DNA of 64,000 nt, taken from the NCBI RefSeq assembly GCF_044324875.1, contig NZ_CP172185.1. One strand, 5' to 3'. This document shows, piece by piece, positions 36,201-39,200 of this stretch. A program made the position numbers. Numbering within the stretch: position 1 is the first letter of the stretch; the number at the start of each line of letters is the position of its first letter. Source of the DNA: Escherichia coli (GTDB lineage: Bacteria; Pseudomonadota; Gammaproteobacteria; Enterobacterales; Enterobacteriaceae).

Positions 36201-39200
36201 GCCATCCATTTTCTGGAGCCGGTATCATGAAAAACTGGCGCAATGATGCGGTCGCCTGGCTGCTGATGCTCAGCGGGCTGGGCACGATCCTACTACTGAT
36301 GGGATCGACGTTTTATGTGGTGATCGTCCAGAGCCTGGGCTGGTTCAACATCGAAGGCGACAGCAATTTCTCGCTGGAATACTGGCGCAATATGTTGCAG
36401 GACGAAGTGTTGCAAAGCGCCCTGTTCTACTCAGTGAAAGTGTCACTGCTGGGGTCGTTCGGCTCGGTGATTTTCGCCTATCCGCTGGCGCTGTGGCTGC
36501 GTAAACCGATGGCCTATAAAGAGGGCATTATCGCGGTGCTGCGTGCGCCGATGTTTATCCCCGGTCTGGTGGCGGCGTTTCTGTTCGTCAATATCGTCGC
36601 TTATCACGGCATTATCAACGAACTGCTGCTGGCGCTGGGGATTATCAGCGAGCCGCTGCGGATGCAGAACGATGACTTCGGCTGGGGCGTGGTTATCCTG
36701 CAAATCTGGAAAAACCTGCCCTTCGCCCTGATCCTCGTCGGCGGCGCAGTCAACGCCATCCGTAACGACGTGCTGGACGCCGCCAGCAATCTCGGTGCCA
36801 GCCGCTGGCGCAGTTTTACCGGCGTGGTGGTGCCGCTGACGCTGCCCGCCGTGCAGGTGACGCTGATTCTGGTATTTATCGGCGCGCTGGGCGACTTCGC
36901 CTTCTTCTCGGTGGCCGGGCCACGCAACACCTACTCGCTGGCGCGGCTGATGCAGGCCACCGCCATGGAGTACGGCGAGTGGAATAACGCGGCGGTGATT
37001 GCGGTGATCATTATGGTCACGGCGGCCATCTGCACGTTGCTGATTGCCACACTGATTACCCCGTTCGCCACCCGCAAAGGAGAGGTCAAATGAGCCACAC
37101 TGATTACCCCGTTCGCCACCCGCAAAGGAGAGGTCAAATGAGCCACACTGCCAACGGTTGCCGGGTGGTGACGATTTCGCTGATCTTCTTCGTGGTCGCT
37201 AATCTGATCTGGCTGGGCATGCCGTTCGGCATGGCGATCCTCTGGTCGCTGGTTGACCCGGCCCATCCGTGGAGCTACCCGGATATCTTCCCGCCCGTGC
37301 TGTCGTTCAGCCGCTGGCTGCTGGTATGGGAAAAGACTTCGCTTTCCGAGGCGCTGTTCAACAGCTACACCATTGCGCCTGCGGTAGCGGTCGCCAGCCT
37401 GCTGCTGTCGCTACCCACCGCGTATGCCTTCGGGCGCATGACCTTTCGCGGTAAGGCGGTGGCGGAGATGCTGACGCTGATCCCGCTGGTGATGCCGGGG
37501 ATGCTGATCGGGATTTTTTTCAGCGCCATGCTGATCAACCTCAATATCGACAACGCGTTTATCAGCATTGTTATCGGCCATACGGTACTGACGCTGCCCT
37601 ATTCGATCCGCATTATGTCTGCGGGGTTTAAGTCGGTGCCGCAGGATCTGATCGACGCCAGCCGCGACCTGGGCTCCGGCGCGTGGGACACCTTCTGCAA
37701 TGCCTATCTGCCGCTGCTGAAACCGAGCTTCCTGGCGGCGCTGATTTTTTGTCTGGTGCGAAGCCTGGAAGAGTTCAGCATCTCATACGTGCTGGGCGCG
37801 CCGGACTTTATCACCGTTCCGACCATTCTTTACTCTTTCCTTGGCTACTCCTTCGTCCGCCCGGATGCGGCGGTGGTGTCGATGATTCTGGTGATCCCCA
37901 ATGTCATCCTGATGGTCATCATTGAGAAGTTGCTGAAGGGGAACTATCTGTCGCAATCCACGGGAAAAGCCTGACCTTTTACAGGAGATAATGTGATGAA
38001 AAAAACAGTGATGATTCTGGCGGGCGGCCTGCTGTGCAGCTCGCTGGCAACGGCGGCGGATAGCCCCGACCTGATTGCCCAAGCGAAAAAAGAGGGCAGC
38101 GTGACCTTTAACGTCTGGTACTTACAGCCGCAGTGGCGCAGCTTTGTGAAGGATTTTGAGCAGCAGTACGGTGTTAAGGTGCGCATCCCGGAAGGGAATA
38201 TCGACGGAAACGTGAACAAGTTGCTGGCAGAAGCGGGGAAAAAAAAAGGTAAAATAGATGTTATCGCCTTGTCTGTTGCGCAACTGCCAGTGGCAATGGG
38301 AGCGAAAGCGCTGGCGAAGGTGGACGATTTGCCGGGCTATGGCGACGCCATTCACCAGATTCAGAACGTTGACACCCAGGGTTATGCCGTGGCGTTCTGG
38401 GGCAACCAGACCGGATTTGCTTACGACCCGCAGCAGATGGGTGACCGGGCGCTGCCACAAACGCTGGAGCAGTTGCAGAGCTTTATCGACGCCAACCCGA
38501 AAAAGTTCGGCTATAACGACCCGAACAACGGCGGCGCTGGGGAAGCCTTTATCCAGCGCATCGTCACTACTCAGGGCGACACGTTTAACAGCGAAGCGGA
38601 GAGCGTTGACCCGGCAGTGGTGAAAAACTGGCAGAAAGGCTGGCAGTGGTTTGCCGCTAATAAGGACAAAATTACCCGCACGGCCTCCGGTGCTGATAGT
38701 CTGACACGCCTGAATGACGGCGAGCTGATGCTGACACCATCCTGGGAAGATCATCTTGTCGGACTACAAAAAACCGGGGCTATCAATTCGCGGCTGAAAT
38801 TTTACGTACCGGAGTTTGGCATGCCTGGCGGCGGTAACATCGCTGCCATTGCCGCCAACAGCCCACATCCGGCGGCATCACGCTTATTCCTCAACTGGCT
38901 GATTCAGCCTGAAACGCAACATGCACTGAGTAAAGTCTTCGGCTCCACGCCGATGAACAAACAGCTCCGTCCGGATCTGAATGAGATCCCGGAGCCCACG
39001 GTGGAGTTTTATGGCAAAGCGTACAGTACACAGCTCAAAAAAGATTTCGTTCGTGAGGTCATGATGCAGTAAGCTTCATTTCGCGCACAGCCATCCCCCT
39101 GAAATCTGGCTGACTGTTATTTCGCAACAGTTATTGAGTAAATCTTTAACCTGTTAACAGAGGGTTTATGAAACGTAAACTTATTGCCTTTGTGATTCTG

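What the first reader, a model, noticed from the sequence alone, without database searches (positions are those of the whole stretch)
37046..37141. Perfect 48-bp tandem duplication across the junction of two ABC permease genes
The duplicated unit contains the last 14 codons and stop of permease 1 plus the RBS and ATG of permease 2. Permease 1 is unchanged. Permease 2 now either starts 48 bp further from the upstream stop, losing the ATGA overlap, or gains a 16-residue N-terminal extension (MSHTDYPVRHPQRRGQ). Perfect identity suggests a recent event that could change the stoichiometry of the two permeases.
Basis: seen in the sequence. Interest (0 to 1): 0.45.

Follow-up and report, generated by a model that had tools for sequence, protein, structure and literature searches.

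The report
Small tandem duplication at gene junction
A real 48-base tandem duplication sits across the overlap of two transporter genes in some poultry-associated E. coli; it is an ordinary slippage-type polymorphism that most likely only adds a short tail to the second protein.

Summary
Window 37046-37141 is a perfect 2 x 48-bp head-to-tail duplication, followed by a third copy of its first 9 bp (37142-37150).

- **Origin.** Single-copy alleles in E. coli and Salmonella carry the unit once, flanked by GCCACACTG twice, 48 bp apart. This is the signature of a microhomology-mediated tandem duplication (replication slippage).
- **Not an artefact.** It is present in 16 independent public assemblies plus the window.
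- **Not private to one isolate.** It occurs only on one haplotype ("B") of a rare accessory ABC-importer operon, which is found in 23 of 5426 complete E. coli genomes. B alleles without the duplication also exist in each of three B sub-haplotypes. One gain followed by repeated precise collapse is the most economical history.
- **Effect on the genes.** Permease 1 is unchanged. The first copy keeps the Shine-Dalgarno sequence and the ATGA stop/start overlap, so the coupled start is preserved and should yield permease 2 with a 16-residue N-terminal extension, predicted to be cytoplasmic and Arg-rich. The identical second start, 44 nt after the stop, can add native-length protein. A change in stoichiometry is possible but untested.

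This is an ordinary member of a known mutation class. Interest is low.

The parts
37046..37093 (+). Copy 1 of the 48-bp unit. It holds the last 15 codons plus the TGA of permease 1, and contains SD1 and ATG1 of permease 2.
37094..37141 (+). Copy 2 of the 48-bp unit, 100% identical to copy 1. It contains SD2 and ATG2. Read in the permease 2 frame, it encodes most of the 16-residue extension.
37142..37150 (+). Third copy of the 9-bp microhomology arm GCCACACTG (the others are at 37046-37054 and 37094-37102). Single-copy alleles have two arms 48 bp apart.
36227..37093 (+). Permease 1 (288 aa, BPD_transp_1, PotB-like). It is unaltered by the duplication.
37090..37974 (+). Permease 2, long form (294 aa), from ATG1, which overlaps the permease 1 stop (ATGA). 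This protein sequence is called on 43 public contigs.
37138..37974 (+). Permease 2, native-length form (278 aa), from ATG2. This is the start chosen by PGAP (WP_032353851.1), 44 nt after the permease 1 stop.
37077..37082 (+). Shine-Dalgarno AAGGAG, 7 nt before ATG1. An identical copy at 37125-37130 serves ATG2.
   Evidence: read from the sequence
35163..36230 (+). ABC ATPase of the same operon (PotA/PhnT2/UgpC-like, below all equivalog cut-offs). It has an ATGA-type overlap with permease 1.
37993..39072 (+). Substrate-binding protein of the operon. It contains an A9 tract at 38239-38247 that varies in length among haplotype B assemblies.

Best explanation
The feature is a microhomology-mediated tandem duplication (MTD).

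**Origin.** The ancestral junction had one copy of the 48-bp segment, bounded by a chance 9-bp direct repeat (GCCACACTG). One arm lies in the 3' end of permease 1 and the other in codons 2-4 of permease 2. Strand misalignment between the two arms during replication duplicated the segment.

**History.** The allele arose on one haplotype (B) of a rare accessory PotABCD-like ABC importer operon, carried on an IS-rich tellurite-resistance island of mainly poultry-associated E. coli. It persists there as a polymorphism and has probably collapsed back to a single copy several times.

**Consequence (inferred, not measured).** Permease 1 is unchanged. ATG1 keeps the identical SD, spacing and 4-nt ATGA overlap, so termination-reinitiation coupling continues and produces permease 2 with a 16-residue, Arg-rich N-terminal tail predicted to be cytoplasmic. 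ATG2 has the same SD but lies 44 nt from the stop. It is uncoupled and can add some native-length protein by de novo initiation. The net effect is probably near neutral.
For: **Repeat anatomy.** There are 2.2 copies at 100% identity.

**Single-copy alleles.** Thirteen complete E. coli genomes hold the unit once and the 9-mer twice, 48 bp apart. Salmonella has the same arrangement. Klebsiella has a single copy without the first arm.

**Distribution in complete genomes.** 3 of the 23 complete E. coli genomes that carry the locus have the duplication, and 20 are 48 bp shorter.

**Link to haplotype B.** All duplication alleles share 14 fixed SNPs (36140-38751) against haplotype A. The duplication is present in 16 distinct assemblies plus the window, always as two perfect copies.

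**B alleles without the duplication.** L019, L021, L023 and L024 each share a derived SNP with a duplication-bearing sub-lineage: 37476T, 38172T or 36914A.

**Literature on the class.**
- MTDs have arms of 4 bp or more and segments of about 10-500 bp. Reversion is 10-100 times faster than formation (PMC8639346; bioRxiv 10.64898/2026.02.28.708716).
- E. coli has about 13,000 variable tandem-duplication loci, and about half have arms longer than 3 bp.

**Translational coupling.**
- The last 15 nt of an upstream gene suffice for termination-reinitiation in E. coli, and gaps of about 20 nt nearly abolish it (PMC10666635).
- Both starts have identical sequence from -44 to +13 and similar predicted accessibility.

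**Topology.** Six hydrophobic segments, with the EAA loop after the fourth, place the N-terminus in the cytoplasm. The extension has 3 Arg, 2 His and 1 Asp. Permease 2 is homologous to PotC (8y5f_C, E = 1.3e-14).
Against: - No expression, proteomic or read-level data are available, so the usage of ATG1 versus ATG2 is inferred.
- The polarity (one gain plus losses) rests on rate arguments. The locus shows clear recombination mosaics (35222-35642; L035 upstream of 37159), which weakens tree-based counting.
- Gene conversion from haplotype A within 36456-37158 cannot be excluded for the B alleles without the duplication.
- The ancestral local hairpin around the start is kept only at ATG2, so the two starts are not fully equivalent. 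However, the folds are no more stable than shuffled sequence.
Confidence: 0.8

Rival explanations
1. Assembly or sequencing artefact: a spurious duplication introduced by an assembler.
For: None found. A 57-bp exact repeat could in principle confuse small-k de Bruijn assemblies.
Against: The same perfect duplication occurs in three complete genomes from different laboratories and countries, with different flanking structure, and in 13 further assemblies. It co-segregates with 14 linked SNPs.
Confidence: 0.01
2. Adaptive regulatory change. The duplication uncouples or re-tunes permease 2 synthesis relative to permease 1, or acts as a reversible switch, and is maintained by selection in poultry E. 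coli.
For: The duplication is the majority state of haplotype B despite expected instability: 16 assemblies plus the window carry it, against 4 without. It adds a second full RBS and start in frame. The ancestral hairpin context differs at ATG1. The MTD preprint argues that some MTDs are retained as adaptive modules.
Against: - The coupled start context is fully retained.
- The operon looks dispensable. It is absent from 5403 of 5426 complete genomes. It is truncated by an IS or frameshifted in several strains. The substrate-binding protein is broken in about 5-6 of the haplotype B loci, both with and without the duplication.
- Sampling of B alleles was partly biased towards the duplication, because the P0003 look-up retrieves only duplication-bearing loci.
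- No 3-copy allele is on record.
Confidence: 0.08
3. Recurrent independent gains. The same duplication arose three or more times in haplotype B through the 9-bp arms, rather than one gain with repeated collapse.
For: MTDs recur at the same microhomology pairs, and long GC-rich arms are hot. Each of three B sub-haplotypes holds both states.
Against: Haplotype A has the identical arms and spacing and is more abundant: at least 1000 contigs against 591. Yet 0 of 20 complete A genomes carry the duplication. The only 'A plus extension' proteins come from 4 contigs of pooled-faeces metagenome assemblies. The three scaffolds returned flip between A and B alleles repeatedly, so they are chimeric. Reversion is reported as 10-100 times faster than formation.
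Confidence: 0.15
4. Only the downstream start (37138) is used, as annotated by PGAP. Permease 2 would then be native-length but translationally uncoupled, with a 44-nt spacer.
For: PGAP annotates 37138 in all three complete genomes. ATG2 keeps the ancestral downstream hairpin partner.
Against: PGAP's choice follows protein homology, not evidence. ATG1 has the same SD, spacing and first 13 nt, plus the ATGA overlap that drives reinitiation (PMC10666635). Other gene callers choose ATG1 on 43 contigs.
Confidence: 0.12

Closest known systems
Microhomology-mediated tandem duplication (MTD) and 'variable TD loci' (Dan et al. 2021, PNAS, PMC8639346; Wei et al. 2026, bioRxiv 10.64898/2026.02.28.708716)
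   Same: A short segment (48 bp) bounded by identical arms (9 bp) has been duplicated head to tail, giving 2 units plus a third arm. It is polymorphic among isolates of one species, and precise single-copy alleles exist in the same genetic background.
   Different: Most described functional MTDs are out-of-frame knock-outs. This one is in frame for the downstream gene and silent for the upstream gene, and it duplicates a whole stop/SD/start module. Reversion is inferred here from population data, not measured.
Translationally coupled gene pairs with a 4-nt ATGA overlap (termination-reinitiation; Huber et al. 2023, PMC10666635)
   Same: The single-copy junction is a classic -4 overlap between two subunits of a heteromeric complex, with the SD inside the upstream gene. 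The first copy of the duplication preserves it.
   Different: The duplication allele carries a second, identical but uncoupled SD and ATG, 48 nt downstream and in frame. This is a natural analogue of the spacer constructs used in that paper. Coupling was not measured here.
PotABCD-type (type I) ABC importers; PotB/PotC permease pair (PDB 8y5f)
   Same: Gene order is ATPase, permease, permease, binding protein. Both permeases have BPD_transp_1 domains. Permease 2 aligns to PotC (E = 1.3e-14). The EAA loop and six hydrophobic segments are present.
   Different: Scores are far below the PotA/B/C/D equivalog cut-offs. The neighbours are a glycerophosphodiester phosphodiesterase and a ROK regulator, so the substrate is unknown and need not be a polyamine.
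Phase-variable contingency loci (simple sequence repeats)
   Same: Copy-number change by slippage is reversible. The same haplotype also carries an A9 tract in the binding-protein gene that varies in length.
   Different: The 48-bp unit has only two copies, is in frame, and does not switch a gene off. No 3-copy allele was found. The rates are unknown.

Membership tests
Microhomology-mediated tandem duplication | Head-to-tail duplication of a short segment (about 10-500 bp) | tested here: met
   48-bp period, 2.2 copies, 100% identity
Microhomology-mediated tandem duplication | The single-copy allele exists and has identical arms (4 bp or more) at both ends of the segment | tested here: met
   GCCACACTG occurs twice, 48 bp apart, in 13 single-copy E. 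coli alleles, in the single-copy haplotype B allele L019 and in Salmonella
Microhomology-mediated tandem duplication | The duplicated allele carries three arms (unit-unit-arm) | tested here: met
   Arms at 37046, 37094 and 37142
Microhomology-mediated tandem duplication | Reverts precisely to a single copy at a rate above the forward rate | tested here: inconclusive
   Single-copy alleles occur in all three haplotype B sub-haplotypes, which is consistent with reversion. Recombination or repeated gain is not excluded, and no rate was measured.
Translationally coupled -4 overlap pair | Same-strand genes whose stop and start overlap as ATGA, with an SD inside the upstream gene | tested here: met
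   Seen in single-copy alleles (annotation). Retained at ATG1, 37090, in the window.
Translationally coupled -4 overlap pair | Downstream translation depends on upstream translation | not testable with these tools
   Needs reporter fusions with a premature stop in permease 1
Type I ABC importer permease (BPD_transp_1) | PF00528 domain with a cytoplasmic EAA coupling loop | tested here: met
   Precomputed PF00528 hits on both permeases. PotC alignment covers the DASRDLGSG...LP loop.
PotB/PotC spermidine-putrescine permeases (equivalogs NF007044 / NF007047) | Score at or above the NCBIfam curated cut-off | tested here: not met
   79.8 bits against a cut-off of 348, and 81.5 against 326. The proteins are related but are not PotB/PotC orthologues.
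Phase-variable simple-sequence contingency locus | Many copies of a short unit whose number changes switch the reading frame or promoter spacing | tested here: not met
   Two copies of 48 bp, in frame. Only 1- and 2-copy alleles were seen, and the 3-copy protein is not in the collection.

The most novel reading that the evidence does not exclude
The duplication is a selectively maintained, reversible switch. By adding a second uncoupled start and an N-terminal tail to permease 2, it shifts the permease 2:permease 1 ratio or the assembly of the transporter. Together with the slippery A9 tract in the binding-protein gene of the same haplotype, it would give poultry-associated E. coli a heritable but reversible way to tune or silence this importer.
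Probability: 0.05. Interest if true: 0.45.

Novelty: new member of a known kind. Interest (0 to 1): 0.13.

Why it matters
It matters little for biology at large. This is one of thousands of small slippage duplications that vary among E. coli genomes.

Its modest value is as a clean natural example. A microhomology duplication has copied an entire stop/Shine-Dalgarno/start module of a translationally coupled subunit pair, and matched single-copy alleles exist in the same haplotype. That makes it a ready-made test of how much coupling distance and an N-terminal tail matter for a heteromeric ABC permease.

It is also a reminder for annotation. PGAP places the start at the second ATG, while other callers choose the first.

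Tried and rejected
- **Plasmid collection.** The search found no homologue of the junction, only distant ABC ATPase matches.
- **RNA structure as a cause or consequence.** Folds of the duplicated and single-copy junctions are not more stable than shuffled sequence (z = 0.86 and 0.66). A 70-nt local hairpin differs between the two starts, but I do not lean on it.
- **New promoter or terminator.** None is created by the duplication.
- **Rfam.** Only the frameshift pseudoknots of IS3-family elements matched. Nothing matched at the junction.
- **Duplication on haplotype A.** The exact extended haplotype A protein exists, but only on metagenome contigs (4 on record; 3 scaffolds returned), and these have A/B allele patterns that flip repeatedly. 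I rejected them as strain-chimeric consensus.
- **Three-copy allele.** It is not in the protein collection.
- **Identifying the window's own genome.** No complete genome matches the flanks. The window differs from strains 135 and Br_112 at 38725 and diverges after about 40310.
- **Not run, judged not decisive.** Structure prediction, and metagenome or genome-wide DNA scans.

Full report
**1. Observation**

The sequence at 37046-37141 is a perfect head-to-tail duplication of 48 bp, GCCACACTGATTACCCCGTTCGCCACCCGCAAAGGAGAGGTCAAATGA. Tandem Repeats Finder extends it to 37150 (2.2 copies, 100% matches, score 210), because the first 9 bases, GCCACACTG, occur a third time at 37142-37150.

It also contains an AAGGAG Shine-Dalgarno sequence (37077-37082) and, 7 nt later, the ATG of permease 2, which overlaps the stop as ATGA.

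- Permease 1 (36227-37093, 288 aa) is unaffected.
- Permease 2 is 294 aa from ATG 37090 or 278 aa from ATG 37138. The two starts are in frame, and residues 1-16 are MSHTDYPVRHPQRRGQ.

**2. Context**

The window is an E. coli chromosomal island. It carries ter (tellurite-resistance) genes, an S6 autotransporter peptidase, an AbgT transporter, a ROK regulator, a glycerophosphodiester phosphodiesterase, and then the operon ATPase-permease-permease-binding protein. sodC, an fdrA cluster and many IS elements follow.

The transporter is PotABCD-like but scores far below every NCBIfam equivalog cut-off. Permease 2 aligns to PotC of PDB 8y5f (E = 1.3e-14). The substrate is unknown.

The operon is rare. 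It occurs in 23 of 5426 complete E. coli genomes, mostly from chicken. It also occurs in Salmonella and Klebsiella.

**3. Orthologous junctions and mechanism**

Of the 23 complete genomes, 3 carry the duplication: strain 135 (Guangdong), Br_112_kylling (Brazil) and ECCNB12-2 (Zhejiang). The other 20 are exactly 48 bp shorter.

Thirteen single-copy E. coli alleles that I fetched contain the unit once and GCCACACTG twice, 48 bp apart. Salmonella is identical. Klebsiella is single-copy with GCCCTGCTT in place of the first arm. The ancestral state is therefore a single copy with an ATGA overlap, and the duplication end-points fall in a 9-bp direct repeat.

This is the defining anatomy of a microhomology-mediated tandem duplication:
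- segments of about 10-500 bp with arms of 4 bp or more;
- reversion 10-100 times faster than formation (PMC8639346; bioRxiv 10.64898/2026.02.28.708716).

The preprint counts about 13,000 tandem-duplication loci that vary among E. coli genomes, about half with arms longer than 3 bp. The class is common.

**4. Real, and how old?**

The duplication is not an artefact. It appears in 16 distinct public assemblies plus the window, always as two perfect copies. The flanks differ among them. The window itself is a further genome: it has C at 38725 and diverges after about 40310.

All duplication alleles share a haplotype, here called B, with 14 fixed differences from the common haplotype A between 36140 and 38751.

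- In the large protein collection, haplotype A permease 2 is on at least 1000 contigs.
- Haplotype B permease 2 (278 aa) is on 591 contigs.
- The 294-aa call is on 43 contigs.

The 20 single-copy complete genomes are haplotype A. Thirteen were fetched: twelve were typed as A across the whole operon, and strain 104, whose operon is IS-truncated, was typed as A from the part that remains. The other seven are inferred to be A from their 99.4-99.6% identity.

Haplotype B also exists without the duplication, in L019, L021, L023 and L024. Three of these are on contigs longer than 4 Mb. Each shares a derived SNP with a duplication-bearing sub-lineage: 37476T, 38172T or 36914A. The state is therefore homoplasic.

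I favour one gain early in haplotype B followed by at least three precise collapses, for three reasons:
- Collapse through 48 bp of homology should be much faster than formation through 9 bp.
- Haplotype A has identical arms but no duplication in isolate genomes.
- The only 'haplotype A plus extension' proteins come from 4 contigs of pooled-faeces metagenome assemblies. The three scaffolds returned flip between A and B alleles many times and are evidently chimeric.

Repeated gain, or short gene conversion, cannot be excluded, because the locus shows recombination mosaics. No 3-copy allele is on record.

**5. Likely consequence (inference)**

The two starts are identical from -44 to +13. ATG1 still overlaps the permease 1 stop. 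In E. coli the last 15 nt of the upstream gene suffice for termination-reinitiation, while gaps of about 20 nt almost abolish it (PMC10666635).

The coupled start should therefore remain active and give the 294-aa protein. ATG2, 44 nt from the stop, can only initiate de novo at its strong SD and would add native-length protein. PGAP's choice of ATG2 reflects homology, not evidence.

Predicted accessibility of the two sites is similar (0.52 and 0.53). The ancestral 70-nt hairpin (-22.3 kcal/mol) is retained only at ATG2. The larger folds are no better than shuffled sequence.

Hydropathy shows six hydrophobic segments, with the EAA loop after the fourth, so the N-terminus is predicted to be cytoplasmic. 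The extension carries 3 Arg, 2 His and 1 Asp, which is compatible with the positive-inside rule. No promoter-like or terminator-like site is created. I expect a near-neutral change.

The operon also looks dispensable. It is IS-truncated or frameshifted in several strains. Its binding-protein gene is broken at an A9 tract in about a quarter of the haplotype B loci sampled.

**6. Verdict**

This is an ordinary member of a known mutation class, in an uncharacterised accessory transporter. It has minor didactic value as a natural duplication of a translational-coupling module, with matched single-copy alleles available for comparison. Interest is 0.13.

Noticed in passing
window 38239-38247: There is an A9 homopolymer in the substrate-binding-protein gene of haplotype B (A7GG in haplotype A). 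Haplotype B assemblies with A10, A8 or A7 have the protein truncated to 85-87 aa (L020, L021, L025, L030, probably L026). This could be real slippage or pseudogenisation, or homopolymer sequencing error.
   Followed up: partly
window 21502-24141 and 55648-58287: Two 100% identical direct copies of a 2640-bp element. Each has minus-strand ORFs of 548 and 332 aa and 47-bp subterminal tandem repeats (24012-24134 and 58158-58280), which looks like an IS21-family element. They bracket about 31.5 kb that includes the S6 peptidase, the ABC operon, sodC and the fdrA cluster, so the whole could behave as a composite unit.
   Followed up: partly
window 238-1085, 6002-7311, 53360-54670: Three copies of an IS3-family element. 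One is inverted relative to the other two. Each has an ALIL programmed-frameshift pseudoknot (Rfam RF01497, 116 bits).
   Followed up: partly
window 60405-60617 (also 60321-60426 and 60630-60735): A 99-bp (33-codon) tandem repeat, 93-95% identical, lies inside a 533-aa minus-strand ORF (59837-61438). That ORF corresponds to a YadA-like adhesin in related genomes and is a likely repeat-number-variable stalk.
   Followed up: no
window 53195-53256: An 18-bp tandem repeat (3.4 copies, 97% identity) lies immediately upstream of an IS3-family copy.
   Followed up: no
L039-L041 (ENA MUNK18 metagenome scaffolds): The scaffolds carry the duplication, but their SNPs alternate between haplotypes A and B many times within 3 kb. 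They are strain-chimeric consensus assemblies from pooled faecal samples. This is a caution for using metagenome contigs to infer linkage.
   Followed up: yes
window 35222-35642 and 36140-36455; loci L003, L011, L013, L035: The operon haplotypes are mosaics. The ATPase-gene SNP block assorts independently of the permease and binding-protein block, and L035 is A-like upstream of 37159 and B-like downstream. This indicates recombination between island alleles.
   Followed up: partly
L005 (CP029164), L008 (CP063492), L010 (CP156706): The operon is decaying in some strains. It is IS3-truncated in permease 1 (strain 104), has a frameshifted binding protein (EF5-18-41), and has a frameshifted ATPase (PKF11).
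   Followed up: partly
window 34117-34947 (-) and 32989-34101 (-): A cytoplasmic-type glycerophosphodiester phosphodiesterase and a ROK-family regulator are divergently adjacent to the ABC operon. This hints that the unknown substrate is a glycerophosphodiester or a related sugar phosphate.
   Followed up: no
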